This document shows positions 1-40,144 of a DNA stretch of 64,000 nucleotides, piece after piece. Positions within the stretch are counted from its first letter, which is position 1, and the number at the start of each line of letters is the position of its first letter. The DNA is from a virus. Its lineage: Duplodnaviria > Caudoviricetes. The position numbers were made by a program, and so were the translations under genes. The notes beneath the pieces were generated by a model. The model did no database searches. It was not told where the DNA came from and saw nothing but the letters and a program-made list of their open reading frames with translations. The stretch spans positions 228 to 64,227 of IMG/VR virus record IMGVR_UViG_3300042453_004282; one strand, written 5' to 3'.

Positions 1-2
1 CC

Positions 3-299
3 GCGTACCACGAGGCGATCCACGCCACCGGCCACAAGAGCCGACTGGCGCGTGACCTCGCCGGGTACGGCCAGCAGTACGCGCAGGAGGAGCTAGTCGC
101 TGAGGTGGGAGCCGCCTTCCTGCTGGCTGAGGTGGGGCTGGACGGGACGGAGGTGCTGGACAACAGCGCCGCCTATGTGCAGGGGTGGGCCAGCCGACTG
201 GGCAGCGACCCCAAGCGGCTGCTGGACGCCGCCAGCGCCGCGCAGAAGGCGGTGGACCACATCCTAGGGGTCCGCTGGGGGGAGGAGGCGGCAGAGTGA
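3..299 (+). CDS. ardC: ArdC-like antirestriction protein, C-terminal zincin metallopeptidase-like domain (5' partial)
   Basis: Frame open from position 3: AYHEAIHATGHKSRLAR...YAQEELVAEVGAAFL...NSAAYVQGW...AASAAQKAVDHIL. HExxH plus EELVAE and SAAYxxxW motifs are typical of ArdC/DUF1738 proteins. Confidence 0.8.
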   Translation, partial: AYHEAIHATGHKSRLARDLAGYGQQYAQEELVAEVGAAFLLAEVGLDGTEVLDNSAAYVQGWASRLGSDPKRLLDAASAAQKAVDHILGVRWGEEAAE

Positions 300-442
300 G
301 CCGGGAGGGGCGGGGGCACAGTCCCCCGCCCCATCCTCACAGGATCGCGCAGGAGCCACGATCCGGCGTCCGGTAAGGGTAGGGGTGCGGTGAGGGGGTC
401 CGGTCGTTCCTAGGCGATTTTAGAGGCATTTACGGGCCTTCA

Positions 443-556
443 ATTTTTTTTGAGAAATCTTCACCGGGGCACTTGACTCCCCCGGAGAAGGGGTTAAGAT
501 CAAGGTATGAGGGACGCACACGGCGTCCCTCTCGCACCCTCAGCAGGAGATCCACG
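443..556 (+). promoter_or_regulatory. Repeated early-promoter cassette 1 (-35 TTGACT, -10 TAAGAT, leader stem-loop, AGGAGA RBS)
   Basis: TTGACT 473-478, TAAGAT 495-500, hairpin GAGGGACGC-acacg-GCGTCCCTC, AGGAGA before ATG 557; near-identical to four downstream copies. Confidence 0.85.
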
Positions 557-832
557 ATGACCGCCACGGCCACGCTTCACATCTCTGCGCAGAAGACCCC
601 CGCGATCACCCCAGCGGACATTGGCCGCACCTTCATCTGGCACGGCGACTACATCATCGACACCGACGACGGCACCCCCACGACCATCACGGGGACGCTG
701 GCGTGGGTTAGCCAGACGGACGACTGGTGCGGGATCATCCCCGACTGGACGCACAGCAGCCCGCAGGGTGCGACCACCTACACGGTCTCCATTAGCGGTC
801 TCCACCGAATCGTCATCCGCCGCGCCGACTGA
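557..832 (+). CDS. Hypothetical early protein (91 aa)
   Basis: ATG 557 follows the cassette RBS; the ORF-track start at 473 is the -35 TTG. Confidence 0.7.
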   Translation: MTATATLHISAQKTPAITPADIGRTFIWHGDYIIDTDDGTPTTITGTLAWVSQTDDWCGIIPDWTHSSPQGATTYTVSISGLHRIVIRRAD

Positions 833-944
833 GAAATTTTCAAAAAATCTTCGCCGGGGGCCTTGACTCCCCCGGAGAAGGGGTTAAGATCCAAGAAGAT
901 GGACGCACACGGCGTCCATCGCGACCCGCAGCAAGGAGATCCCG
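833..944 (+). promoter_or_regulatory. Repeated early-promoter cassette 2
   Basis: TTGACT 863-868, TAAGAT 885-890, hairpin GATGGACGC-acacg-GCGTCCATC, AAGGAGA RBS. Confidence 0.85.
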
Positions 945-1310
945 ATGCGCACCTTCCGCCGCCTCCATGGCCCCGCTGGCCTCACCCTCACCCTCGACTG
1001 CGCCGAGATCTACCCGGAAGACCCCGGCATGGGCACCCCCGCGCTGGTGGAGGTGGTGAGGGGGCGGACCACCGCCAGCGGCACCTTCTGGTGCGCCCTC
1101 GACACCGGGGAGGTGGACGGGACGGTGGACCTCACCCCCCATCAGCTCCTGTGGCTGAGTGAGCAGCACGACACGGTGGAGGCCTTCATCCAGCACTGGA
1201 CGGCAGAGGCTCGCCGGGAGATGGCCGAGGTGCGCGCCGAGGCTGCCGCCGAGTACGAGGCGCTGACGGCTGGCATCGACGCCGATCTTGAAGCCAACGG
1301 GGAGTGGTAA
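945..1310 (+). CDS. Hypothetical acidic early protein (121 aa)
   Basis: ORF directly after the cassette RBS with GC3-rich codons. Confidence 0.75.
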   Translation: MRTFRRLHGPAGLTLTLDCAEIYPEDPGMGTPALVEVVRGRTTASGTFWCALDTGEVDGTVDLTPHQLLWLSEQHDTVEAFIQHWTAEARREMAEVRAEAAAEYEALTAGIDADLEANGEW

Positions 1311-1414
1311 AAAAAATGGCCGGGGGGACTTGCGCCCCCCGGCACCCTAGGTTAGGATCCAAGGAGAGGGGCGACACTCCGTCGCCCCTCGCGACCCCAG
1401 CAGGAGATCCCGCC
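1311..1414 (+). promoter_or_regulatory. Repeated early-promoter cassette 3
   Basis: TTGCGC 1330-1335, 17-bp spacer, TAGGAT 1353-1358, hairpin GAGGGGCGAC-actcc-GTCGCCCCTC, AGGAGA RBS. Confidence 0.8.
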
Positions 1415-1627
1415 ATGTCCGCACCGACCCGCGCCTTCGACGTGAAGATGCCCCGGACCTTCGCCACCGTCGCCAACGCCATCAAGGCGGTGGAGCGCAC
1501 CACCTTTGAGCCGGGGCTGACCTATGTGATCGCCGTGGACGCGCAGGGCCGGTACTTCCCCTGTTTCGTCGGGGAGTCCGCCGCCCATGTGATCCACCAA
1601 GGTTTCGCCGTCATCAGCCGCCGCTGA
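1415..1627 (+). CDS. Hypothetical early protein (70 aa)
   Basis: ATG 1415 after the cassette RBS (MSAPTRAFDV...). Confidence 0.7.
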   Translation: MSAPTRAFDVKMPRTFATVANAIKAVERTTFEPGLTYVIAVDAQGRYFPCFVGESAAHVIHQGFAVISRR

Positions 1628-1742
1628 AAAAAAAAATCCAAAAATCTTCTCCGGGGGGCTTGATTCCCCCGGAGGAGTGGTTAAGATCCAAGGAGAGGGA
1701 CGCACACGGCGTCCCTCCCGCACCCTCAGCAGGAGATCCACG
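1628..1742 (+). promoter_or_regulatory. Repeated early-promoter cassette 4
   Basis: A-tract, TTGATT 1660-1665, TAAGAT 1682-1687, same hairpin and RBS as cassette 1. Confidence 0.85.
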
Positions 1743-2276
1743 ATGACCGCTGCCGCTCTGCTCGCCCGCGCCGCCACCGGCACCCGCATGGTGTCGCTCG
1801 TGTACACCACCCGCGAGACTGGCGAGGTGGCGCGCTACCTGATCGTCCCCGGCGCTACGTTGGAGACGCTCTACCGCAGGGACGCCGCGTGGCTGGAGCG
1901 GGCCTACCGCTTCCTCTCCCGCATCGCCCCGGAGGGGGCCGCGACGGTGGCGGTGGGGCAGGTGCTCGCCAGCCGCGCCGTGTCGCTGGAGACGCCGGGG
2001 GAGAATCCGGCGGCGACCGCCGCCCACGCCTACGACTCCGTGGCGCCGGGGCTGAAGGTCCACCGGGAGAGCGGTGAGGTCCACGTCTCCGGGGTGCTGG
2101 TGGGGAAGGTGGTCCTCACCCCCGGCACTCCCCGCAAGCCGGTGGCCCACCGCACCCCGGTGACCGCCGCGAAGGCCCGGCTCCGCTACATGGTCCCCAG
2201 CGCCAAGTGGCGCCAGTTCCGGCTGGCCGACATGGGCCGGGTGGCGGCAGAGGGGGAGGTGCTGGTGCTGGGCTGA
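1743..2276 (+). CDS. Hypothetical early protein (177 aa)
   Basis: ATG 1743 after the cassette RBS. Confidence 0.75.
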   Translation: MTAAALLARAATGTRMVSLVYTTRETGEVARYLIVPGATLETLYRRDAAWLERAYRFLSRIAPEGAATVAVGQVLASRAVSLETPGENPAATAAHAYDSVAPGLKVHRESGEVHVSGVLVGKVVLTPGTPRKPVAHRTPVTAAKARLRYMVPSAKWRQFRLADMGRVAAEGEVLVLG

Positions 2277-2379
2277 AAGAAAAACGCCGGGGGGCCTTGC
2301 GCCCCCCGGCACCCTAGGTTAGGATCCAAGAAGAGGGGCGCACACGGCGCCCCTCGCAAACGCACCACCGGAGGCTCAG
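2277..2379 (+). promoter_or_regulatory. Repeated early-promoter cassette 5
   Basis: TTGCGC 2297-2302, TAGGAT 2320-2325, hairpin GAGGGGCGC-acacg-GCGCCCCTC, GGAGG RBS. Confidence 0.8.
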
Positions 2380-3225
2380 ATGTCCCGCACCGACCTGCAC
2401 CGCCCCAGCGTCATGATCCCCGCCGACTACGACCTCCTCACGGTCTACTGGTCCGCACGGTACACCCTCGACGGCGAGTGCATCGACGAGGGGTACGGGA
2501 TCGACGAGGCGTCGGCCATCATGGCGGACGCCGTCGCCAGCGGCCAGCCGGTCTACGGGTCCATCGGCCGCTGCGGCTCCTGCGGGGCGCGCTACATCAC
2601 CGGGGCGCTGTACGAGCACCGCCCCACCGGGGAGCTTCTCAACGTGGGCCACGACTGCGCCGACAAAATGTACCTGACCGCCGACTGGACGGCGTCGGAG
2701 CTTGCGGCGAAGCGGGCGGCGGACCGCCGCGCTGCTAGCCTCAACCGGCTGCGCCGTGCGGCCGAGGCGGCGGCGTTTCTCGCGCAGCGTGAGGGGCTGG
2801 AAGACGCCCTCACCGCCACCTACACCGGGGGGCGGCAGCACCACATCCTCCGCGATCTCAGCGCCAAGCTCGCGCAATGGGGGAGCCTGTCGGAGGCGCA
2901 GACGGCGCTGGCCTACCGGCTTGCGGAGGAGGTTCGGGAGGCGAACAGCCGCCCCGTTGAGGTGCTGGTGAGCGCGCCGACTGGCCGGGTGACCATCCGT
3001 GGCCGGGTGGTGGGGCTCCGTGCGGTAGAGTCCATGTACGGGGTCACCCTGAAGGCGACCGTGCGGGTGCCGGTGGACGGGGTGGAGGGCGGCGTGTGGT
3101 ACTGCTGGCTCACCGTCCCCGGTGGCGCTAGCTGGACGCGGGGGGACACGGTGGCGGTGAAGGCGACCGTGGAGCGCAGCGACCGGGAGGGCTGGGGCTT
3201 CGGCAAGCGCCCCGCCGTCGCCTAG
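2380..3225 (+). CDS. Hypothetical protein with CxxC...C putative zinc site (281 aa)
   Basis: CGSCG...VGHDC motif; follows cassette 5 and ends at a terminator. Confidence 0.75.
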   Translation: MSRTDLHRPSVMIPADYDLLTVYWSARYTLDGECIDEGYGIDEASAIMADAVASGQPVYGSIGRCGSCGARYITGALYEHRPTGELLNVGHDCADKMYLTADWTASELAAKRAADRRAASLNRLRRAAEAAAFLAQREGLEDALTATYTGGRQHHILRDLSAKLAQWGSLSEAQTALAYRLAEEVREANSRPVEVLVSAPTGRVTIRGRVVGLRAVESMYGVTLKATVRVPVDGVEGGVWYCWLTVPGGASWTRGDTVAVKATVERSDREGWGFGKRPAVA

Positions 3226-3231
3226 CCGGGA

Positions 3232-3269
3232 GGGGGGAGGCCAAAGCACCGGCCTCCCCCCTTTTTTTT
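3232..3269 (+). terminator. Rho-independent terminator closing the GC-rich module
   Basis: GGGGGGAGGCC-aaagcacc-GGCCTCCCCCC followed by a T-run. Confidence 0.85.
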
Positions 3270-3497
3270 GTTCCTGTCTTTTCCGCCGGGTGGAACGCGG
3301 ACGGGGAACGCGGAGGGAAAGCGCGGATGAAAAGCGCGGACGAATGCGCGCAGGAGCCCGCAGGAGCCCGCAGGAGCGACGAACGCACCCCCGAAAGGGG
3401 GACAACCCCACAACGGGGGGCGAGTCGTTTATAGGGCATTTTAGAGGGATCTGGAAGGGGTGCCGGGATTGTGACGCTCAGGGTGGGGGGGATTCGT

Positions 3498-3597
3498 TGC
3501 AGGAATCGTGCCACCGTCGCCGCCTTGCAAGGATCATGCCAGCGCCGAGGCTATGCAAGGACCGTGCCACGAGGCCCTCTGTGCAAGGATCGTGCCA
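3498..3597 (-). promoter_or_regulatory. Four tandem sigma54 (RpoN) -24/-12 consensus sites
   Basis: Minus-strand TGGCACGATTCCTGCA (3498-3513), TGGCATGATCCTTGCA (3526-3541), TGGCACGGTCCTTGCA (3554-3569), TGGCACGATCCTTGCA (3582-3597); consensus TGGCACG-N4-TTGC; exact 28-bp period. Confidence 0.75.
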
Positions 3598-3605
3598 GAC
3601 TTTTG

Positions 3606-3735
3606 TGTGGATAACTCTGTGGATAACTCTGTGGATAACTCTGTGGATAACTCTGTGGAAATGTGGATAACTCTGTGGATAACTCTGTGGAAAACTCGGT
3701 GAGAAACGACTATCAAAATGTGGAAATGTGGAAAA
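3606..3735 (-). repeat. Tandem DnaA-box array
   Basis: TGTGGATAA (reverse complement TTATCCACA) at 3606, 3618, 3630, 3642, 3662, 3674; TGTGGAAAA (TTTTCCACA) at 3686 and 3727; mostly 12-bp period with CTC spacers. Confidence 0.9.
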
Positions 3736-3994
3736 CTGGGACTCCGGACATCCGCCAGAAGGCGCGGTTAACCCCCCCACCCCCAATATATGTGGCACGG
3801 GGGAATCTTACCGTAGGTCACTGAGGCGCATGGAATTTTTTTTCCGGGGCGAAAAAGGGGCAGGATAGGAAAAAATCACGATGGAACTCTGAGGATGTTA
3901 CTGGGCATACCGGGAGAAAAATTTTTTCCGGGGAAAAATCTCCCTATAGGGTCGTCACCTAAATAGTGAGAACCCTTTTTTTTTTCTTAATACT

Positions 3995-6544
3995 ATGGCC
4001 AAATCAGCCTCCACGGATCTGGAACTCATCCAATGTATTGCCTTTGCGGTGAAGGCGTGTAAACAGAAATCGTTCACGGTGCCCACGACGGTATTTCCCA
4101 AGATTGAACGAGTGCGGGGGATGGCCGTTATTGAAGCGCAATTACAGGATAGGAACACGCCCTTTCTCACCTTCGGGGGGATTACGGTGGCGAAGGAACC
4201 GAATGCCGTGGCGGGGATGGGGGCGTCTGAGGCGGATGTGAGCGCCGCGATCACCGCCTCCCGGAATCGGTTCAAAACCGCAGCCGAGAAGTATGTGGCG
4301 CGACCGATTGCGGGGAGACAACCCACGGAGACGGATATTCGAAACGTGTTGGTCTTGGATCCGCAAGCGTATTTCTATGATTTGGTGAATAACTACGCGG
4401 TGGATCTGTCGGATACGTCCTTGCCGAAGCAGCAGGGGGGGTTGGTGTTTTTCTTGGACAAGGACTTGTCCGTACAGGTGACGATTCCCCATGGGTTTCC
4501 CGTGACCGAGAAACTCTTGCAGATCCTGCCGAAGCGGTATCTGCTCTTGAAAGAGTTGCGTGGCGAGGAGTCCGCAGAAGTGGCGGCGCTGACCAAACTG
4601 GAGACGGCTTACAAAAAACTGGTGAAGGCCGAGGAGCGGCTGGAAGAGGCATTAGCCCCACTCCGGAGCATGGGGAGAAAGCCGACAAAGGGGCAAACGG
4701 ACAAGGAAGCAAAGTTGGAGGAGGTGCAGCAACAGATTAAGGAGAATCGACAAGCGGCCACGCCGAAAATGGGGTACATTCGCATCGTCTCCGGGACGCA
4801 GGGGCGGGCAAAGGATTACAGCGCCCTTGTACCCCATCTGCGGCAGAATTTTCCATGGACGCGCATGCTGGGAAGTTATGCGAAGTACAGTCTCTTTCTG
4901 ACGAAGGGGGGAGACAAGATGACGATCCCGGCGACGATCCTCAAGACATGGAACACCGGGAAGCTGTTGAAGCGCGTGGTGGATCTGGAAAATCCGGCAA
5001 AGGACTATGTGATCTATGATCAGTCGAGTCCGTTCACGGAGACCGTGAAAAATGAAGCCCTCGCGCACATCTTGGACAAAATGCAACTCAATGGATTGAA
5101 CGAGGAACTCTTGTCCCCGGTGGACTTGTTTATCGTCAATCGTCGGATGGAACGCGCCATCATGGACGAGATCCAGAAGAAAATCACGAACAACGCGGAT
5201 GTCCTACTGGATTATGTAAACGACACCCCGCAGCAGCCGACGACCTATAAAACCATTCTTCAGCGACATTTTGACGCGGACGATCTGGTCGGGGTTTCGT
5301 TGAAATTGCCAGAAAAGGTTGGATCGGATCCCTTCATGAAAGTGATGGGGGAATATCGCGGGACGGTCTCACAGGATTTGGCGAAAAAAACGGATCCGTT
5401 CACGCGCTTTTTGATGCACCTGATTCCGTCGAAGATGGATGCGATGATTGACGATTTGATCACGATTCAATTCGACAAGTTTGACATTAAACCCCAGAAA
5501 AAATCATGGTCCTACCCGGTCATCTTTAACTATGATACCATGAAGAAATATGGGTTGCAGAATATGCCCTTCAAATTGGAATTCTTCTTGATGACATGGG
5601 ACAAGGCCGGGTTCAACGGCCAATGGGCAAAAAACAACCCGGTGCCGACACCGGGAAACTGGACCGGTGGGTATGGGATGACGGCGGCAAACTTCCTCTT
5701 TTCCATGTATACCGCCTATGACCCGATTGTGAAGGACTTAGCCGCCATCCGGAAAAAGGCGATGGACGAGACGCTCCAGATGCTCCTCCGTACCGGGCAA
5801 GTGTCACCCGCGACGATGAAGATCCCCACCATACAAGCCGCCCAGCGAGAAGCCGAGCGTCTCTTGTCCGCGCCCCGTATTATTGGTCGATTTAAGGGGG
5901 ACGATTCCCCCCCGATCCTGCGTTTCACCCGGTTGGTGGAAGACGCGCAGTTGCGGGACATGGTGACGCGCATCGCGGCGCTGGAAGCCGAGGAAGCCAT
6001 GCTAGAGCGGGAACCCGCAAAAAACCCCGTGACCACCCGGCGCAAGAGTGAAGTGAAAACCTTGCTCAAAGACCTGAGAGCCCAGAGAAATAAATCACAA
6101 ACGAATCGCGGATCTGAAAGCAATACGGATCGCATCTATACGCTCTATCAGGTCCGTGTCATTGAACGCCTCTTGAGCGAATTGGATACCAGTAAGGCGG
6201 GGAAATGGACGGAATTTTTGCGTCAAGAAAATCAACCGCCTCGAAAGGACGGCCCTTTTGCGCGGAAGAGCGTCTTGGAATATATTGACGCACATTATAT
6301 CGCGGTCCAGTTTTCATGGTTCCTGCTTCGGGGAGGACGGTCCCAACATCTGGCCCTGAAGAAGAAGTTATTCTTGTCCGTATTCGGTCTCATCACGAAA
6401 TCTGGGTATAAGTCCTTTGAGACCTTCACCGATGCGGCGGGAAATCTCCAGACGAAAGACATTCTCCGGGTCGCGGTCATCACCCCGGATCAAAAACGCG
6501 CCTATGCGACCTTCAGTAACGCCCCGTATGTGATGTTCTCATAG
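3995..6544 (+). CDS. Large hypothetical protein (849 aa), possibly nuclease-like or internal virion protein
   Basis: Long ORF with coiled-coil segments and an SPVDLF...LVGVSLK motif; function not established. Confidence 0.8.
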   Translation: MAKSASTDLELIQCIAFAVKACKQKSFTVPTTVFPKIERVRGMAVIEAQLQDRNTPFLTFGGITVAKEPNAVAGMGASEADVSAAITASRNRFKTAAEKYVARPIAGRQPTETDIRNVLVLDPQAYFYDLVNNYAVDLSDTSLPKQQGGLVFFLDKDLSVQVTIPHGFPVTEKLLQILPKRYLLLKELRGEESAEVAALTKLETAYKKLVKAEERLEEALAPLRSMGRKPTKGQTDKEAKLEEVQQQIKENRQAATPKMGYIRIVSGTQGRAKDYSALVPHLRQNFPWTRMLGSYAKYSLFLTKGGDKMTIPATILKTWNTGKLLKRVVDLENPAKDYVIYDQSSPFTETVKNEALAHILDKMQLNGLNEELLSPVDLFIVNRRMERAIMDEIQKKITNNADVLLDYVNDTPQQPTTYKTILQRHFDADDLVGVSLKLPEKVGSDPFMKVMGEYRGTVSQDLAKKTDPFTRFLMHLIPSKMDAMIDDLITIQFDKFDIKPQKKSWSYPVIFNYDTMKKYGLQNMPFKLEFFLMTWDKAGFNGQWAKNNPVPTPGNWTGGYGMTAANFLFSMYTAYDPIVKDLAAIRKKAMDETLQMLLRTGQVSPATMKIPTIQAAQREAERLLSAPRIIGRFKGDDSPPILRFTRLVEDAQLRDMVTRIAALEAEEAMLEREPAKNPVTTRRKSEVKTLLKDLRAQRNKSQTNRGSESNTDRIYTLYQVRVIERLLSELDTSKAGKWTEFLRQENQPPRKDGPFARKSVLEYIDAHYIAVQFSWFLLRGGRSQHLALKKKLFLSVFGLITKSGYKSFETFTDAAGNLQTKDILRVAVITPDQKRAYATFSNAPYVMFS

Positions 6545-6600: not shown

Positions 6601-7668
6601 GTGTTTGGTATGGTGAAGGCAGTTGATATTGTGGTGGATTTGCAAGCCGGGGATACGGGAAAAGGAAAAGTCACCCACCATCTCCTCAACACCGCGACGG
6701 AGCCGTATACCGCCGTCTGTCGTTTCAATGGAGGAGGAAATGCAGGACACACGATCTATCATCACGGAAAGAAATATGTTACCCACCAAGTGCCATCAGG
6801 TATATTTTTTGGGGTTCCTTGTGTTCTTGGCCTTGGGTGTGTGGTAAATCCCCAAGCACTGGCGGATGAAGTTCGTGCGTTGCGGGAAGACGGCTTCACC
6901 GCTCCCGTGTATGTGGATCGACGTGCCCATGTAACCCGTGCCACCCACGTGGAGACCGACCGAAAGGATAGCGCGCATCTCGGGACAACGGGGCAAGGAG
7001 TCGGTCCCACGATGATGGACAAATACGGACGCACCGGGTTGCGTATGGAGCAGTGGGGGCTAGATGCCTCCGTGTTTCGCCAACTTGATATTTCCGTGAT
7101 TGATACTTTTGAGATGTTTCACACGGAATTCACGCCACACACCGTGCTATGTGAAGGGGCACAAGGCTTTCAGTTGGATGTGGATTGGGGAGATTACCCC
7201 TATGTAACCAGTTCCCATTGCACCAGCGGGGCGGTCGCCCTCAACGGCTTTCCTCCGTCCCGATGGAGAAAGGTGTATGGCGTGATGAAGCCGTATGAAA
7301 CCTATTCGGGATTCAAGTTGTTCAACGCCCGCGTGGATATGGAAACTACCTATGCCGCACTACAGACACTGGGGGGAGAAATCGGCGCGACGACGGGACG
7401 GCGGCGGCAAGTGCGCAGTTTGCATTTAGATGATGTCATTCGTGCCATTTATGTGAATGATGTAACCGATGTGATCATCAACAAGATTGATATCATGGAG
7501 GCCGCACACACGGCTGGATATACGAAGGTATACCAGTACAAGCATAATTTCCTGTGGTGGGCCTATGAGACTCGACAGGATTTTGTGGATGCGGTGACGC
7601 GAACCCTTCGGTTGGAGTGTCCCTATCTGCGCACGATCACATGGTCAGATTCCCCCCATGCGGTATAG
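6601..7668 (+). CDS. purA: Adenylosuccinate synthetase
   Basis: GDTGKGK, GGGNAGHT, GTTGQGVGP, EGAQG, YPYVTSS, GATTGRRR and NKID motifs; start may be ATG 6610. Confidence 0.9.
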   Translation: MFGMVKAVDIVVDLQAGDTGKGKVTHHLLNTATEPYTAVCRFNGGGNAGHTIYHHGKKYVTHQVPSGIFFGVPCVLGLGCVVNPQALADEVRALREDGFTAPVYVDRRAHVTRATHVETDRKDSAHLGTTGQGVGPTMMDKYGRTGLRMEQWGLDASVFRQLDISVIDTFEMFHTEFTPHTVLCEGAQGFQLDVDWGDYPYVTSSHCTSGAVALNGFPPSRWRKVYGVMKPYETYSGFKLFNARVDMETTYAALQTLGGEIGATTGRRRQVRSLHLDDVIRAIYVNDVTDVIINKIDIMEAAHTAGYTKVYQYKHNFLWWAYETRQDFVDAVTRTLRLECPYLRTITWSDSPHAV

Positions 7669-9295: not shown

Positions 9296-9815
9296 CCTTG
9301 GCCCCGCAGATAGCACCCTGAAGATTGTTCAGCGACTGCTTCCGGTGCAAACACGACAACGAGACACTACCCGGAACGACATCGTCATTCATAACGATGG
9401 GATGAATCTGTCGGCAACAACCGTACATTCTGCATTGAGACATTCACGCCTCTCCTATCATTTTTTTGTGGATAGAAGCGGTCGCGTGTTTCAATTCATG
9501 TCACTGGATCGTGTGGCAGAACATGCTGGGAGATCCAAACATCTGAATACCAAGCAGTGGAATGACTTCAGCATAGGCATCTGTCTGCAAGGATCAAACT
9601 TCGTCGGCTACACCAAGGCGCAGTACGCGAGCTTGAACAAATTGATCCGCAACCTTACTCTGCGGTATAAACACCTCGGCCCCATTCATGTGGTAGGGCA
9701 CAACGAGGTGGCCTATCCGAAAGGACGAAAGTCAGACCCCGGAAAACACTTTGACTGGAAACAACTCCATTATGGCATACGCACCGTACCACAAGCGGCT
9801 CGACGCCGACATTAA
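9258..9815 (+). CDS. N-acetylmuramoyl-L-alanine amidase (Amidase_2) with hydrophobic N-terminus
   Basis: IVIH, SYHF, AEHAG, SIGICL, VVGH...KSDPG motifs. Confidence 0.85.
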   Translation: MILPLLFLLAQSSLGPADSTLKIVQRLLPVQTRQRDTTRNDIVIHNDGMNLSATTVHSALRHSRLSYHFFVDRSGRVFQFMSLDRVAEHAGRSKHLNTKQWNDFSIGICLQGSNFVGYTKAQYASLNKLIRNLTLRYKHLGPIHVVGHNEVAYPKGRKSDPGKHFDWKQLHYGIRTVPQAARRRH

Positions 9816-10860
9816 GCTGGATTTTGATGATGTATTGATGGTTCCACAACCAACCGATATTACATCGCGCAGTGAAGTGAATCTCGTGGCAAATATTTCC
9901 GGCGTCACAAAGAAGACGATTACGGGAGTGCCAATTATTGCGGCCAACATGGATGGAGTGGGAACATTCAGCATGAATGCCGCACTCGCCAAGCATCGTA
10001 TCTTCACGGCGATCACGAAGCATACCACGGTGAACGAGTGGAAAACGATGTTAGAAGCCTATTATCATGATGTGGATCCTATGCTCAATCCTCTACGCTA
10101 TGCCTGTGTCAGTATTGGCATGGGTGAAGACAACGTGGCATATCTTCGTGAGATTGACATGGCGATGTATGATTATGAAATCACCTCGCCGCTAAAAGTC
10201 GTGATTGATGTGGCAAACGGACATATGAAAAAGTTTGCTGCATTTGTGCAGCGCGTCAGAGATGCCTTTCCACATGCCTTCATTATGGCTGGAACGGTGG
10301 CCACACCAGACGCCACGGAACAATTGCTTCTTCATGGCGCAGATTTAGTGCGCGTTGGCATCGGAACTGGCGCCGTATGCACCACTCGTCGTGTCTCTGG
10401 TGTTGGGTATCCTCAATTTTCCGCTGTGATGGAGTGCGCGGAGGTTGCTGATGCGCATGGCGGGGGTATTATCTCGGATGGAGGGTGTGTGCATCCCGGA
10501 GATTTTGCAAAAGCGTTGGGTGCAGGGGCAAAAATGGTGATGGCTGGAAGTATTTTTGCCGGTCACACCCAATCCGAACAGGAAGTTGATGGCGGATGTG
10601 TCACATTTTATGGTATGAGTTCACACGCGGCGCAAGAAAAGCACGGAGAAGTACGAAATTATCGGTCTTCCGAGGGACGAGTAGTTAAAATTCCGTATAA
10701 AGGCGATGTAAACCTGACGGTTTTGGACATTTTGGGAGGAATTCGGTCTGCTTGTGCGTATGTCGGGGCAAGAAACCTGCAAGATATCGACAAATATGCA
10801 AGATTTGTGCGGGTAAACCATCAACTGAACCAAAGTTTGGACGCATACACGATTTCTTGA
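9772..10860 (+). CDS. guaC: GMP reductase
   Basis: KLDFDDVL, IIAANMDGVG, IDVANG, VGIGTGAVCTTR, GYPQFSA, DGGC, FYGMSS, YRSSEG and GGIRSACAYVGA motifs. Confidence 0.92.
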   Translation: MAYAPYHKRLDADIKLDFDDVLMVPQPTDITSRSEVNLVANISGVTKKTITGVPIIAANMDGVGTFSMNAALAKHRIFTAITKHTTVNEWKTMLEAYYHDVDPMLNPLRYACVSIGMGEDNVAYLREIDMAMYDYEITSPLKVVIDVANGHMKKFAAFVQRVRDAFPHAFIMAGTVATPDATEQLLLHGADLVRVGIGTGAVCTTRRVSGVGYPQFSAVMECAEVADAHGGGIISDGGCVHPGDFAKALGAGAKMVMAGSIFAGHTQSEQEVDGGCVTFYGMSSHAAQEKHGEVRNYRSSEGRVVKIPYKGDVNLTVLDILGGIRSACAYVGARNLQDIDKYARFVRVNHQLNQSLDAYTIS

Positions 10861-37400: not shown

Positions 37401-40144
37401 CTGGCACTTCACACACTAGCACCACATTCATTCAAAATGCGATGGCGTCGAAGAGCCGAGTCTGCGGGAACGCAATCCTTGGCAATTACAAGAACGGAAT
37501 CCTTCAGTTAGATCCACCTCAAGACATGTGGATGGATACTGAAGTACGTCCTGATGTACAAGTAAACTATCAGGGAAGCAACGATGGATGGGAGTTTAGC
37601 GAAACCCCCTTTAACATTCACTGGAATGGATGGCAGACGGTCTGGCAGGGCGTGGACATCACCACCGTCGCAACAGTAACGATGGCGCCTACGGGAGTCA
37701 GCGAAATTCGCGGGTACAATGAATCTGCACAAGTCGTGAGCAATTTAACGCGCTCCATGATATTCTCTCAGCAACTGCCAAACAACAACTTGCGCACCGT
37801 TGGTGTAAAGGTGTTTGACATCTCGGTGGTGCCATTTATCCGGCATCAAGTCGTGACCTTTATGGCATCGGGGCTGCAACCAAATACGATTGTAAAGGCG
37901 TATTTTGATAACGAAGAGGTGTCTGATCACTGCCGGTATTTTGTGCTGCCAACTGGAACGACAGTCAGCGACCTTCGCGAGTTGCCAACGGCTGAACTGA
38001 TTTCTCAATATGAGACGGGTGCGACCCAATATGGCGACGATCTGGTAGTCAGCGCACAAGGGGAAATTGTTGGTCAATTCCTCATTCCAGAAAACACATT
38101 CAGAGCAGGTTCCAGAATTTTCAAGCTGGAAAATGCGGCGAGCACGACATTGGCAGCGGCGCAGTTTGTGGCGTCTGGCCTGTCTCAGATCAATGATGCC
38201 ACGATCTCATCCACCCGCTTCTCGGATGTGCGGCAAGATTCATTGAATCTGGTGCAAAACGCGGTCATTGATCGACTGATTCTCAACAATCCTAGCACCT
38301 TTGATGCGGCTTCGTATGGTGACCCGATGGCCCAGACCTTCATCGTAGAGGGTGAAGTGGATGGCGTGATGATCACGAAGGTTGACCTCTTTTTCAGAAA
38401 GAAGTCGTCATCAAAGAATATTACCATCCAACTGCGTGAAGTGGTAAATGGATATCCGGGGGGAAAAATTGTTCCTTTCAGCACGGTAACCCTTTCACCA
38501 TCTCAAGTCGCAGTTAGCGAAATTTCGGATGTGGCCACATCCTTTGTGTTCGAGACTCCGGTCTTCTTGAAAAACAATGTCGAGTATGCGATTGTTATCT
38601 TACCTGAAAATAATAACACGGCCTATGAAGTTTGGGTTTCCGAACTCGGGCAAAACACTCTCTTGACAGGTGATCGCATCACTCAAAATCCGTCTGTTGG
38701 TGTGCTGTTTATTCCGAACAACAACACGGCGTGGACTGCATTGGAAGCGGAAGATCTCAAATTCACCTTGTGGAAGGGCGTATTTTCCACAGCAGAAACA
38801 ACCGTCCTATTCAAGTCGGCGCCGATGGATTATTTGGCAATAGAAACGGAAAGCACACGAGCCCTAGTTCCGGGTGATGTGATGACCGTCTATTCCACAA
38901 TCACCGGCACAGAGGCTCCGCTTACAGGAACTATCACAGTGTCTGGCAACAGGGTAACGGGATCATCCACGAACTTCAATCTTGAGGTTTCGATTGGTGA
39001 TCGTCTTCGTGCCGTGCAGACTGGATTTACGGCAGCGGCGTTTGCCACCACGGAAATTACTGGAACCGGCTTTTCTACTCGTCTGCGCGCCAACGATGTG
39101 TTGTTTGATGGTGATACCTTCGTTGGCGTGATTGATACGGTCAACAGCGACACTGTGTTGACGCTGAAAGACGCCGCGCCAATCAGTGGATCGCTGGTGG
39201 ATCCTAAAGCACGGGTAATCGTTGGCATGGTGGCTGACATTGCAGCCACCGGAGAAGTGATCACGCTCGAAGAAAACTATCCAAACACGATGCCGTCCTC
39301 TGTTCAATATTTCAAGGATGCCTATGTTGGGCGAGGTATCGTAAAACATGTGTATGCAAATGAAGTGGCAGCATATGTCACAGACGGAGGATTTGCCGCC
39401 GACGATACCTTCATCATTCGCCCTGCCATTTCTGGGGAAGTGTCTGATGTTGAGTACACGATTGCGGATGTGCTGAATAAGCCAGTGTCTGCGCTTGCTC
39501 CAAATTTTGGTACGCTTACCTTGGCACCAACCGCTACGGTTGATTTGCGGTATCGTATGATGGACGACAGTGGAAATCTGGCAGCTTCGTATGCGCCGAT
39601 CAAAAACGGGGATACCTTGGAGTTGCATGATCCAGCCGTTGTCTATTCCTACTCAAATTTGATTAATGGCAATACCCACACGATGGAAATTCAGGCCAAG
39701 ATTCGTAGTACCAGCCCTTCGATCAGTCCCACCATCGACCTGAGAAAGAGTGGAGTGGCTACGGTGCATAATCTGATTGGATCGGTAGAAGACGCTGCCA
39801 CGGCGGTCTATATGACCAGAGCCGTTGCATTGGATGCCCCGGCAGATAATGTGCGCGTGTTCGTAGATGTGAAGCTTCCGGAAACAACCGAAATCAAGGT
39901 TTTTGCAAAGGTTCAATTAGTTGGAGACAATACGCCATTCAATGAACTGGATTGGGAGTATCAGTTGGAAGAATTTGTGAAGCTTCCAAGAAATCGCCAG
40001 TCATTCCAAGAATATACGTATTTCCTGCCGACCAGTGAATTGGGGTTCCAGTTCTCAAAGTTTGCAATCAAGATCGAAATGTACTCGGAAAATCCGTGTA
40101 AAGTGCCGCTTATCAAGAACTTCAGAGCGGTGGCCTTGATTTAA
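34424..40144 (+). CDS. Very large baseplate/tail structural protein (DUF4815/VrlC-like)
   Basis: PYYDDF...FHRILFKPG.AVQARELTQLQ, APGADR, RTFDESGNY, RFTMRDIG.LE.RI and DPMAQTF motifs. Confidence 0.8.
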   Translation: MSINLQTSPYYDDFSEEKNFHRILFKPGYAVQARELTQLQTILQEQIKRVGNHIFKDGSVVLGCAETFQFAVPYVKILREDQLGTVIADTAFQSFETALVGATVTNEIGVSATLVLLSTDPNGQRVLYLNYLTAATDGSGETAFSANDILTIVDLNGTTLTRRFVVAAGTTAVGIGSLYRIDDGIVYAQGNFIRHTAQTKVLDYFSGTPTKNVGFRILEEGVTSDDDVTLLDPAAGSYNYAAPGADRYKLTTQLESYAPNVTPDSGFYLLFVVADGAVKRAFNKPQYAELQKALAQRTFDESGNYTVSGLNVMVREHLKTATNNGKYTASLGGNSSLLVYGVEPGKAYVEGFEADLKSTDYLEVTKATDIATLDDKLISTAYGNYVLVNTVLGDWDLTDACLAVNLKAGSNVIAKATVGMIKYHSGSVVSGVYRLYLQNITVQAPYTSDDLSTITTITDEGTNSCTVSGTFMTEEPTLGTLIFPTTAKAVVEYDTNSTIYFYWKKWSGSINPSITVSLTGAEEWPQSGPLSATDIKANFMVVNNSTNQPVDFTTSGSSIVITGSSATLTLASGSAANHTVYGLVRIKNQNALSVSIERGWLKVDGTTLTGQSETNLSNGVIYLGVSNAYDIEAVYAYPSYTGPSENAFPATENFTGWTDITAFCNLVNNQNDNYYDTSFIRYTGGLDLTTQKIVIKYRYFLRSSNSGFLNKNSYVGCLIDADPQNPTTPPSGMEYKWIYTYQLPTYKVSATGISYDLRDVIDFRPSKAIRAGYNANSYATSLIMSATHNLATSFQSGIYHPDPDRELTTTFSYNLPRIDKVVLTRDGEFKVLTGISSLEPQAPNDEAHAMTLCEVHLAPYPSLSTFVAKTTGREDYASFVRLVDNRRFTMRDIGDLEQRINRLEYFTALSLMENAVANSAIFEDPNDTTSDLLVKKGILVDNFDGHATGNIYNEEYAAAVDVKTKQLRPSFTLQHVEFEHLSGGHLSGQSVLTGTSHTSTTFIQNAMASKSRVCGNAILGNYKNGILQLDPPQDMWMDTEVRPDVQVNYQGSNDGWEFSETPFNIHWNGWQTVWQGVDITTVATVTMAPTGVSEIRGYNESAQVVSNLTRSMIFSQQLPNNNLRTVGVKVFDISVVPFIRHQVVTFMASGLQPNTIVKAYFDNEEVSDHCRYFVLPTGTTVSDLRELPTAELISQYETGATQYGDDLVVSAQGEIVGQFLIPENTFRAGSRIFKLENAASTTLAAAQFVASGLSQINDATISSTRFSDVRQDSLNLVQNAVIDRLILNNPSTFDAASYGDPMAQTFIVEGEVDGVMITKVDLFFRKKSSSKNITIQLREVVNGYPGGKIVPFSTVTLSPSQVAVSEISDVATSFVFETPVFLKNNVEYAIVILPENNNTAYEVWVSELGQNTLLTGDRITQNPSVGVLFIPNNNTAWTALEAEDLKFTLWKGVFSTAETTVLFKSAPMDYLAIETESTRALVPGDVMTVYSTITGTEAPLTGTITVSGNRVTGSSTNFNLEVSIGDRLRAVQTGFTAAAFATTEITGTGFSTRLRANDVLFDGDTFVGVIDTVNSDTVLTLKDAAPISGSLVDPKARVIVGMVADIAATGEVITLEENYPNTMPSSVQYFKDAYVGRGIVKHVYANEVAAYVTDGGFAADDTFIIRPAISGEVSDVEYTIADVLNKPVSALAPNFGTLTLAPTATVDLRYRMMDDSGNLAASYAPIKNGDTLELHDPAVVYSYSNLINGNTHTMEIQAKIRSTSPSISPTIDLRKSGVATVHNLIGSVEDAATAVYMTRAVALDAPADNVRVFVDVKLPETTEIKVFAKVQLVGDNTPFNELDWEYQLEEFVKLPRNRQSFQEYTYFLPTSELGFQFSKFAIKIEMYSENPCKVPLIKNFRAVALI

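What the first reader, a model, noticed from the sequence alone, without database searches (positions are those of the whole stretch)
3498..3597. Four phased sigma54 consensus sites with no gene to drive: candidate RpoN decoy
Seen: four 16-bp matches to TGGCACG-N4-TTGC at exact 28-bp period with unrelated 12-bp spacers, so only the motif is conserved. They point leftward toward non-coding DNA and antisense to the early genes. Established: sigma54 holoenzyme forms stable closed complexes at -24/-12 sites without an activator. Inference: a DNA sponge that traps sigma54 or its holoenzyme (for example to blunt the phage-shock response), or a roadblock insulating the adjacent DnaA array. I do not know of a described phage element like this.
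Basis: partly seen in the sequence, partly recalled or inferred. Interest (0 to 1): 0.8.

Follow-up and report, generated by a model that had tools for sequence, protein, structure and literature searches.

The report
Sigma-54 docking-site array in lake phage
An uncultured T4-like lake phage keeps four tightly packed landing sites for the bacterial sigma-54 RNA polymerase in a gene-free gap, facing no gene; a distant relative keeps the same four-site array, so the sites are selected, but their purpose (trap, barrier or promoter) is still open.

Summary
Four sites at 3498, 3526, 3554 and 3582 (minus strand, exact 28-bp period, unrelated spacers) all fit TGGCAYR-N4-YTGCW. They are the only such sites in the 64-kb record. 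The contig is not a chimera. A 168-kb relative that is 93% complete has the same gene order, and its only four sites also form one tandem array (27-bp period), with a different interior, different spacers and the opposite orientation to the genes.

The same kind of array is present in more than 120 viral contigs, against 2 in 596 Gb of bacterial genomes and 0 for a reversed control. In weak copies the substitutions match the known sigma-54 degeneracy (A to T at -11, G to A after TGGCAY), and GG and GC almost never change. Sites are almost never closer than 25 bp. Orientation to the next gene is about even across independent phage groups (15 against 13).

My best reading is that these are real host sigma-54 holoenzyme docking sites acting mainly as a binding array (decoy or barrier). 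Tandem promoters and a phage-encoded binder remain rivals. The host is unknown and no binding has been shown. This scan had already noted such arrays on other phage DNA, and five literature searches found no description.

The parts
3498..3513 (-). Sigma-54-type site 1: TGGCACGATTCCTGCA (-12 element CTGCA)
3526..3541 (-). Sigma-54-type site 2: TGGCATGATCCTTGCA
3554..3569 (-). Sigma-54-type site 3: TGGCACGGTCCTTGCA (perfect to TGGCACG-N4-TTGC)
3582..3597 (-). Sigma-54-type site 4: TGGCACGATCCTTGCA (perfect)
3226..3497 (.). Gene-free stretch that the sites face. It holds the + strand terminator (3228-3265 plus T run), 4 copies of a CGCGGA-type unit at 13-bp period (3292-3341), and 3 copies of CGCAGGAGC at 10-bp period (3346-3377). 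There is no codon-position GC signal.
3481..3491 (+). G run GGGTGGGGGGG, 6 nt left of site 1. Its inverted partner is at 3772-3784.
   Evidence: read directly
3606..3737 (+). DnaA-box array. Six perfect TGTGGATAA (the complement of TTATCCACA) lie mostly at 12-bp period, plus four TGTGGAAA(A/T) variants. It abuts the sigma-54 array on its upstream side.
3772..3784 (+). C run CCCCCCCACCCCC, the inverted partner of the G run. Together the two runs bracket both arrays.
   Evidence: read directly
2380..3225 (+). Last gene of the GC-rich early module (P0002, 281 aa, GC3 about 0.9). It converges on the array.
3995..6544 (+). 849-aa gene of unknown function (P0001) to the right of the gap. It is transcribed away from the array.

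Best explanation
The four repeats are genuine docking sites for the host's sigma-54 (RpoN) RNA polymerase. They belong to a recurrent and, as far as I could find, undescribed class of sigma-54-site arrays in phage genomes.

In this phage the array sits in a 770-bp gene-free gap of the GC-rich early-gene module and faces no gene. I infer that sigma-54 holoenzyme binds each site as a stable closed complex that cannot fire without an activator. At 28 bp centre to centre the complexes would be about as close as they can pack.

On this reading the array works as a binding array and not as a promoter for a protein gene. In trans it would hold back the small cellular pool of sigma-54 as the phage DNA multiplies. 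In cis it would form a protein block between the end of the early cassettes and the DnaA-box array.

Shown: the sites exist, they are selected, and their sequence degeneracy equals that of sigma-54 sites. Inferred: that sigma-54 binds them, and what follows from binding.
For: 1. All four sites fit TGGCAYR-N4-YTGCW and are the only such sites in the record.

2. Conservation under divergence. The relative G002 is 168,292 nt and 93% complete (gp6 49%, GuaC 51%, PhoH 62% identical). It has exactly 4 matches in 168 kb, all in one tandem array at 27-bp period. All sigma-54-specified positions are the same as here, while 3 of the 4 free interior bases, the spacers, the flanks and the orientation differ. 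No other DNA similarity exists between the two gaps.

3. Recurrence. A pair of sites at 28-bp period occurs in 13 viral contigs, 0 for the reversed control, and 2 in the 596-Gb genome collection.

4. The degeneracy matches sigma-54. In 98 near-copies beside 122 distinct arrays, 51 substitutions fall on the -11 A (43 of them to T) and 41 on the G after TGGCAY (37 to A). GG takes 3 and GC takes 1. The ChIP-defined Salmonella sites vary at the same two places (PMC3844500, passages). Outside the searched pattern, 89% of sites have Y before TGGCA and 88% have R after TGGCAYG.

5. No shared phage protein. The arrays fall in 35 locus groups without a common neighbouring family.

6. Non-promoter behaviour. 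Of 28 groups with a called gene on the firing side, 15 are co-directional and 13 convergent. Only 2 of 196 spacings are 24 bp or less although 16-46 was searchable, and 83 are 25-29. W and G002 have no other sigma-54 site in front of any gene. Neither encodes an enhancer-binding ATPase or RpoN.

7. Both bacterial genomes that hold such arrays encode rpoN (2 of 2).

8. Sigma-54 holoenzyme forms stable closed complexes that need an activator (PMC3844500).
Against: - No binding data exist and the host is unknown. The nearest relatives of the ArdC-like gene are Brevundimonas/Caulobacter phages (43%) and Hymenobacter plasmids (45%), which is only a weak hint that the host has rpoN.
- My collection patterns required the sigma-54 core, so the core's conservation across loci is partly built in. 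The independent parts are the extra copies, the substitution spectrum, the flanking bases and the reversed control.
- In G002 the array is co-directional with a DUF932 gene about 190 nt downstream, and the simple scan finds no sigma-70 consensus between them. In the largest phage group 61 of 73 arrays with a called gene on that side are co-directional with it. Both facts fit promoters.
- The array is an accessory. Five other relatives (42-75% complete) have 0-1 sites, and 78 further GuaC loci have none in the stretch captured.
- Four sites per genome is a small sponge.
- Gene calls are crude ORF calls.
Confidence: 0.45

Rival explanations
1. The sites are working tandem sigma-54-dependent promoters. 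A host activator fires them, giving a leftward non-coding or antisense RNA in this phage and the DUF932 messenger in the relative. The extra copies raise local holoenzyme occupancy.
For: - G002: the array is co-directional with DUF932 and about 190 nt upstream, with no sigma-70 consensus in between.
- In the largest phage group 61 of 73 arrays are co-directional with the gene on the firing side.
- The leftward 265-nt RNA folds better than shuffles (z = -3.0), and a weak minus-strand terminator-like site lies at 3351-3334.
- PMC3844500 notes that nearby sites may speed promoter search and that opposed sites may act through antisense RNA or interference.
Against: - There is no gene or coding signal on the firing side here.
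- Across independent groups the split is 15 co-directional to 13 convergent.
- Copies 25-29 bp apart would block each other.
- No activator gene is present in G000 or in the 93%-complete G002.
- The fold z-score includes the antisense of the strong + strand terminator, and terminator-like sites are as frequent in shuffles (1.3).
- No Rfam family matches.
Confidence: 0.27
2. The repeats are iterons or operators for a phage-encoded DNA-binding protein, for example a replication initiator acting with the DnaA boxes and the AT-rich stretch to the right. The likeness to sigma-54 sites would be coincidence or mimicry.
For: Direct repeats beside DnaA boxes and an A+T-richer stretch (3700-3990, 46-49% GC) next to a large unknown gene resemble iteron origins. 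One unknown protein family (window 1677-2276) lies near the array in both W and G002.
Against: - The neighbours differ between W and G002. P0001 and P0002 have no homologue in G001, the 27-kb twin of G002, and the DnaA boxes there are 7.5 kb away.
- The shared family also occurs in G006, which has no site.
- No protein family is common to the 35 array-bearing groups.
- A private protein would not predict the sigma-54 substitution spectrum, nor the same core in phages of 32-61% GC.
Confidence: 0.13
3. Artefact: the GC-rich left part with the array and the T4-like right part were joined wrongly through the DnaA repeat, or the four matches are chance.
For: - GC drops from 67-73% to 48% across the gap.
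- Logan contigs of four runs all break inside the DnaA array.
- The left:right depth ratio varies from 0.8 to 1.9.
- One run holds the DnaA repeat in a third context.
Against: - The 168-kb single contig G002 has the same layout: a GC-richer module with the homologous gene and a four-site array, then GuaC, PhoH and gp6 in the same order.
- Other relatives also show GC-richer stretches upstream of PurA.
- Both parts are present at depths within about 2-fold in X2, X3 and X7, and up to about 4-fold for some right-hand pieces in X10, across four studies.
- Chance is excluded.
Confidence: 0.03
4. The element acts at the RNA level. Read on the gene-sense strand, each repeat would be a small hairpin showing GGA in its loop, giving a CsrA/RsmA-type protein sponge.
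For: GGA lies in the interior on the gene-sense strand in both W (AAGGAUC) and G002 (CGGAAC).
Against: - Only 6 of 315 perfect sites have GGA on the TGCAA strand and 34 of 315 on the other strand.
- The predicted fold of the + strand RNA does not form these hairpins.
- A strong terminator lies upstream and no promoter consensus lies in between.
Confidence: 0.02

Closest known systems
Bacterial sigma-54 (RpoN) -24/-12 promoters and ChIP-defined binding sites, e.g. Salmonella glnK, pspA, rsr, hypA (PMC3844500, passages read)
   Same: The core is the same: TGGCAYR-N4-YTGCW with GG and GC 10 bp apart. Degeneracy falls at the same two positions. Y comes before TGGCA and R after TGGCAYG.
   Different: Here there are four sites in tandem at 28 bp. 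There is no gene in the firing direction, no recognisable enhancer, and no activator gene in the phage. The sites are on phage DNA and are the phage's only such sites.
Non-promoter (intragenic or opposed) sigma-54 sites of Salmonella, E. coli and Vibrio (PMC3844500)
   Same: These are sites that bind holoenzyme without an obvious gene to drive. The proposed roles are interference, antisense RNA or a local reservoir.
   Different: Those sites are single, weaker than consensus and scattered in genes. These are consensus-grade, close-packed, intergenic and conserved as an array.
Titrating site clusters such as E. coli datA for DnaA (recalled; also named in earlier scan notes) and synthetic decoy repeats (PMC3322331, listing and abstract only)
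   Same: Many high-affinity sites for one host factor sit outside a promoter. An actual DnaA-box cluster lies beside this array.
   Different: The target would be a sigma factor or its holoenzyme. No titration has been measured. There are only four sites per genome copy.
Iteron-type origins (P1, F, RK2, pSC101; recalled)
   Same: Direct repeats lie next to DnaA boxes and an A+T-richer stretch.
   Different: No initiator gene was recognised. The period is 28 bp, not about 22. The repeat core equals the sigma-54 consensus and recurs in unrelated phages.
Phage sigma-54-site arrays noted earlier by this scan on other DNA (e1-3273539, e1-5838169, e1-5657524, e1-6073067; AI notes)
   Same: Tandem consensus sites lie in gene-free phage gaps, are common in viral contigs and rare in bacteria, and have no known function.
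   Different: This case adds four points: a conserved four-site array in two distant T4-like relatives with opposite orientation, direct contact with a DnaA-box array, an internal position in a phage type with permuted ends (recalled for T4-like phages; the array is at 38 kb of the 168-kb relative), and no gene on the firing side.

Membership tests
Sigma-54 (-24/-12) promoter | GG and GC elements 10 bp apart within TGGCAYR-N4-YTGCW | tested here: met
   All four sites have 0 mismatches. Two are perfect to TGGCACG-N4-TTGC.
Sigma-54 (-24/-12) promoter | Lies upstream of, and co-directional with, a gene or RNA that it drives | tested here: not met
   The firing side is 272 nt without coding signal, followed by the 3' end of a convergent gene. 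The feature is met in the relative G002 (DUF932 gene about 190 nt downstream).
Sigma-54 (-24/-12) promoter | Enhancer-binding AAA+ activator and its upstream binding site 80-150 bp away | tested here: inconclusive
   There is no PF00158 match in G000 (38% complete) or G002 (93%), and no bEBP-like GAFTGA protein in 1.07 Mb of array loci (3 GAFSGA strings in glycine-rich frames). A host activator cannot be excluded. The upstream 80-150 bp here is the DnaA-box array.
Sigma-54 (-24/-12) promoter | Host encodes rpoN | not testable with these tools
   The host is unknown. Both bacterial MAGs that hold such arrays have rpoN (2 of 2). Controls show rpoN in Caulobacter, Bacteroides, E. coli and Bacillus, and none in Synechococcus, Thermus, Deinococcus or Corynebacterium.
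Sigma-54 (-24/-12) promoter | Bound by sigma-54 holoenzyme | not testable with these tools
   This needs EMSA, footprinting or ChIP.
Host-factor decoy / titration array (datA-like) | Several consensus-grade sites for one factor outside a promoter context, kept by selection | tested here: met
Host-factor decoy / titration array (datA-like) | Measurable depletion of the factor | not testable with these tools
   This needs a reporter assay with the array on a multicopy plasmid or during infection.
Iteron replication origin | Direct repeats with DnaA boxes and an unwinding stretch beside the gene of the initiator that binds them | tested here: inconclusive
   Repeats and DnaA boxes are present. 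The neighbouring 849-aa gene has no family and no homologue was found in the relative's 27-kb twin G001. G002 has the array without adjacent boxes.
Recurrent phage sigma-54-site array (class seen by this scan) | Two or more co-oriented consensus sites 25-29, 35-38 or 46-47 bp apart in a gene-free gap of a phage | tested here: met
   Period 28 with four copies. The spacing classes come from 122 arrays.

The most novel reading that the evidence does not exclude
Phages of many lineages carry close-packed DNA decoys for the host sigma-54 holoenzyme. Each site parks one polymerase as a closed complex that cannot fire. Because sigma-54 is scarce, replicating phage DNA would drain it and silence the sigma-54 regulon (envelope-stress, RNA-repair, nitrogen and motility genes) without any phage protein. 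In this phage the sigma-54 trap is fused to a DnaA trap, forming a compound landing pad for host DNA-binding proteins.
Probability: 0.22. Interest if true: 0.85.

Novelty: new variant of a known kind. Interest (0 to 1): 0.62.

Why it matters
Sigma-54 is the one bacterial sigma factor whose holoenzyme sits on DNA without firing. Phages have hardly been linked to it. Five full-text searches (listings and abstract starts only) gave no paper on sigma-54 site arrays in phage genomes.

If phages use consensus sites as traps, barriers or activator-gated early promoters, that is a host-takeover route made of DNA alone. It would also be testable with simple reagents. This locus is a good test case for four reasons:
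- the array is short;
- it is conserved in a distant relative with only the sigma-54 positions kept;
- it faces no gene;
- it touches a DnaA-box array, so two host factors could be tested on one 300-bp fragment.

Tried and rejected
**Chimera.** I suspected one from the GC jump and from contigs breaking in the DnaA repeat. I rejected it after finding G001/G002 and the GC-richer modules in other relatives.

**Relatives by protein.** P0001 and P0002 gave no viral-contig relatives and no useful phage or plasmid match. P0001 has only one 98% twin among 8000 scored candidates.

**A pattern with this array's own interior** found nothing in viral contigs.

**Rfam.** Nothing near threshold.

**RNA evidence.** No RNA holder was listed. 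This says nothing about expression.

**Variants in other runs.** Contigs of X3, X7 and X10 cover 1336-3635 collinearly with about 5% differences. The difference table was cut (238 rows not shown), so I could not read whether the four sites are unchanged there.

**Adjacency to DnaA boxes as a rule.** Only 4 of 122 arrays have 3 or more boxes within 500 nt.

G006 has the protein but no site. The Atlas gave nothing for it.

**P0001 function.** No Pfam or PHROG family. Atlas hits are unnamed viral clusters and its model is poor.

**CsrA-type RNA sponge.** Rejected.

**Packaging-site reading.** In one large marine group the array lies in front of a small basic protein, an M15 peptidase, TerL and portal, often near contig ends (27 of 122 arrays lie less than 300 nt from a locus end). 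This does not apply here, because the array is internal in a T4-like genome (38 kb into the 168-kb G002).

**Host.** Not resolved.

**Supplements** of PMC3844500 (the scoring matrix) were not opened. A formal PSSM score of the four sites is therefore missing.

**Structure and complex tools** were not used because they do not bear on a DNA element.

Full report
**What is there.** Window 3498-3597 holds four co-oriented 16-bp repeats that start exactly 28 bp apart. On the minus strand they read TGGCACGATTCCTGCA, TGGCATGATCCTTGCA, TGGCACGGTCCTTGCA and TGGCACGATCCTTGCA. Their 12-nt spacers are unrelated. Two copies are perfect to TGGCACG-N4-TTGC and two have one mismatch. All four fit TGGCAYR-N4-YTGCW. 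With one mismatch allowed, the 64-kb window has 6 matches against 1.5 expected (1 of 100 shuffles reached 6). The two outside the array each carry a mismatch. The exact pattern TGGCAYGNNNNNTGC occurs four times in the whole 64,227-nt record, all here, and 0 times for the reversed control.

**Surroundings.** The record is a linear IMG/VR fragment, 38% complete by CheckV, and the window is bases 228-64227 of it. From about 4000 onward it is a distant T4-like myovirus of about 48% GC. It carries gp6, gp13/14/15-type and baseplate genes, gp32, gp59, PhoH, a PurA-like gene, GMP reductase and UvdE. The left 3.2 kb is 67-73% GC with third-position GC near 0.9, and all its genes are on the + strand. 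They comprise the C-terminal part of an ArdC-like zinc peptidase, small unknown genes, and P0002 at 2380-3225.

The 770-bp gap between P0002 and the 849-aa unknown gene P0001 (3995-6544) holds, in order:
- a strong + strand terminator (3228-3265);
- four CGCGGA-type units at 13-bp period (3292-3341);
- three CGCAGGAGC units at 10-bp period (3346-3377);
- a G run (3481-3491);
- the four sigma-54-type sites;
- a DnaA-box array (six perfect TGTGGATAA plus four variants, 3606-3737);
- the inverted C run (3772-3784);
- an A+T-richer stretch.

As promoters the sites would fire leftward into 272 nt without coding signal and then into the 3' end of a convergent gene.

**Is the contig real?** The GC jump made a chimera plausible. 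In four runs from four studies, Logan contigs cover the left part up to 3635 and the right part from 3664 or 3669, and both break inside the DnaA repeat. The left:right depth ratio ranged from about 0.8 to 1.9, and one run held the DnaA repeat in a third context. The question was settled by relatives. Record G001 (26,966 nt) and its near-twin G002 (168,292 nt, 93% complete) share GMP reductase (51%), PhoH (62%), an endolysin-like gene, several small genes in the same order, and gp6 (49%). Upstream they have a GC-richer module containing a homologue (37%) of the window's 1677-2276 gene. Other relatives also show a GC-richer stretch upstream of PurA. I take the junction as real.

**The key comparison.** In the 168-kb G002 the pattern TGGCAYRNNNNYTGCW occurs four times, all in one tandem array at 27-bp period (38208-38304): TGGCACGGAACTTGCA three times, then TGGCACGGTTTTTGCT. 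G001 has three copies. Compared with the window:
- every sigma-54-specified position is the same;
- three of the four free interior bases differ;
- the spacers differ (identical to each other in G002, unrelated to each other in the window);
- no other similarity exists between the two gaps;
- the array is inverted relative to the syntenic genes.

In G002 the array points at a DUF932 gene about 190 nt downstream, with no sigma-70 consensus in between. In the window it points at nothing. The array is an accessory. Five further relatives (42-75% complete) have 0-1 sites, and 78 other GuaC-bearing loci have none in the captured stretch.

**The wider class.** Two sites at 28-bp period (TGCAANNNNCRTGCCA-N12-the same) occur in 13 viral contigs, 0 for the pattern read backwards, and 2 in the 596-Gb species-representative genome collection. 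Both of those two are Bacteroidota MAGs, and both encode rpoN. Together with the window, 131 loci gave 122 distinct arrays of 2-7 copies, from contigs of 32-61% GC.

Three results do not follow from the search pattern:

1. *Substitution spectrum.* The 98 near-copies (1-2 mismatches) beside the arrays change almost only at two positions. These are the A of TTGCA (51 changes, 43 to T) and the G after TGGCAY (41 changes, 37 to A). GG changed 3 times and GC once. These are the positions, and the alternative bases, at which the ChIP-defined Salmonella sites vary (table in PMC3844500, passages read).
2. *Flanking bases.* In 315 perfect sites the base before TGGCA is Y in 89% and the base after TGGCAYG is R in 88%. 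This fits the extended consensus as I recall it from Barrios et al. 1999, a paper I did not read here.
3. *Spacing.* After dropping arrays with identical spacing vectors, 196 spacings remained: 2 at 24 bp or less, 83 at 25-29, 8 at 30-34, 28 at 35-38, 22 at 39-45, 17 at 46-47 and 36 at 48 or more. Spacings of 16-46 bp were searchable. The binder therefore seems to need about 25 bp per site. The preferred spacings step by about 10 bp (about 27, 36.5, 46.5), which puts neighbours near half a helical turn out of phase. I read that as room for bulky neighbours; this is inference.

**Promoter or binding array?** The loci fall into 35 groups by shared neighbouring proteins. One group has 90 loci, and 55 of those share a small basic protein, an M15 peptidase, TerL and portal to one side of the array. 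Among the 28 groups with a called gene on the firing side, 15 are co-directional and 13 convergent (crude ORF calls, with the window entered by hand). Within the big group 61 of 73 are co-directional, which reflects common descent. Real promoters should be co-directional nearly always. W and G002 have no other sigma-54 site before any gene and encode no enhancer-binding ATPase or RpoN. Copies 25-29 bp apart would obstruct one another as promoters. Against this stands the promoter-like placement in G002 and in the large group. I therefore keep the promoter reading as the main rival.

**Other readings.**
- *Private phage binder.* This is disfavoured because no protein family is shared by the array-bearing groups. 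The only family common to W and G002 near the array also occurs in G006, which has no site. Such a protein would also not predict the sigma-54 substitution spectrum.
- *Iteron origin with the DnaA boxes.* This reading is specific to the window. Only 4 of 122 arrays have three or more DnaA boxes within 500 nt, and in G001 the boxes lie 7.5 kb from the array.
- *CsrA-type RNA sponge.* This was rejected.

**Mechanism proposed.** Host sigma-54 holoenzyme binds each site as a closed complex. Such complexes are stable and need an enhancer-binding ATPase to open (PMC3844500). Four complexes at 28-bp spacing would coat about 110 bp between the terminator of the early cassettes and the DnaA-box array. 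As phage DNA multiplies, the sites would come to outnumber the small sigma-54 pool (about a hundred molecules per E. coli cell, recalled). This would lower expression of the host's sigma-54 regulon. In cis the block could stop read-through or separate the two arrays. The steps beyond "these are selected sigma-54-type sites" are inferred.

**Limits.**
- The host is unknown. The best matches of the ArdC-like fragment are Brevundimonas/Caulobacter phages (43%) and Hymenobacter plasmids (45%). Both lineages have rpoN in the controls, but this is weak evidence.
- No RNA run holds the stretch.
- Supplements were not opened.
- The class was already noted by this scan on other phage DNA. I re-tested its recurrence myself.
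- Five literature searches listed no paper describing such arrays. I read only listings and the passages of PMC3844500.

**Verdict.** The sigma-54 identity of the sites is well supported by comparison. The decoy or barrier function is plausible and favoured here, but unproven.

Noticed in passing
window 3606-3737: This is a DnaA-box array with six perfect TGTGGATAA plus four variants. Blastn finds similar arrays in T7-like coliphages (near genome ends) and in microviruses. In run X2 the same repeat (3629-3692) sits between unrelated AT-rich flanks, which is a third context.
   Followed up: partly
window 3292-3377: Two more tandem repeat sets lie in the same gap: four CGCGGA-type units at 13-bp period and three CGCAGGAGC units at 10-bp period. 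They may be sites for further DNA-binding proteins. I recognise neither motif.
   Followed up: no
window 3481-3491 and 3772-3784: Inverted G and C runs (GGGTGGGGGGG and CCCCCCCACCCCC) bracket the sigma-54 array plus the DnaA array. A G-rich run of the GGGGGTGGGGG type also lies 10-90 nt from the arrays in many loci of the large marine group. No strand-switch joint was listed.
   Followed up: partly
window 1-3225 and relatives L147, L149, L155, L160, L162, L168: The early module is 15-20 GC points richer than the rest of the phage, here and in several relatives. It carries genes typical of plasmid leading regions (ArdC-like here, DUF932 in G002). In other runs its cassettes are rearranged, with joints 947>2276, 2310>1352 and 1203>1307.
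   Followed up: partly
window 3995-6544: An 849-aa protein has no Pfam or PHROG family and only one 98% twin among the candidates scored from a collection of 5.8 billion proteins. Atlas neighbours are unnamed viral clusters.
   Followed up: partly
L007, L008, L015, L017 and about 50 further loci (e.g. L107:1252-2508): A large uncultured, mostly marine phage group has 2-7 sigma-54-type sites in a divergent gap. On one side lie a G-rich run, a small basic protein, an M15 peptidase, TerL and portal. The array is often close to contig ends.
   Followed up: partly
L140:1381-1401 and 1462-1485 (G002): Upstream of the G002 array lie a 7-bp-arm dyad (TGCGCCG-N7-CGGCGCA), about 100 nt before the first site, and a (GCAATC)3 repeat just before it. 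These may be candidate activator or other binding sites.
   Followed up: no
window 6601-7668 and 9751-10860: A PurA-like gene and a GMP reductase are conserved in order across many relatives: GuaC in 80 of 80 fetched loci by design, and PurA in 11.
   Followed up: no
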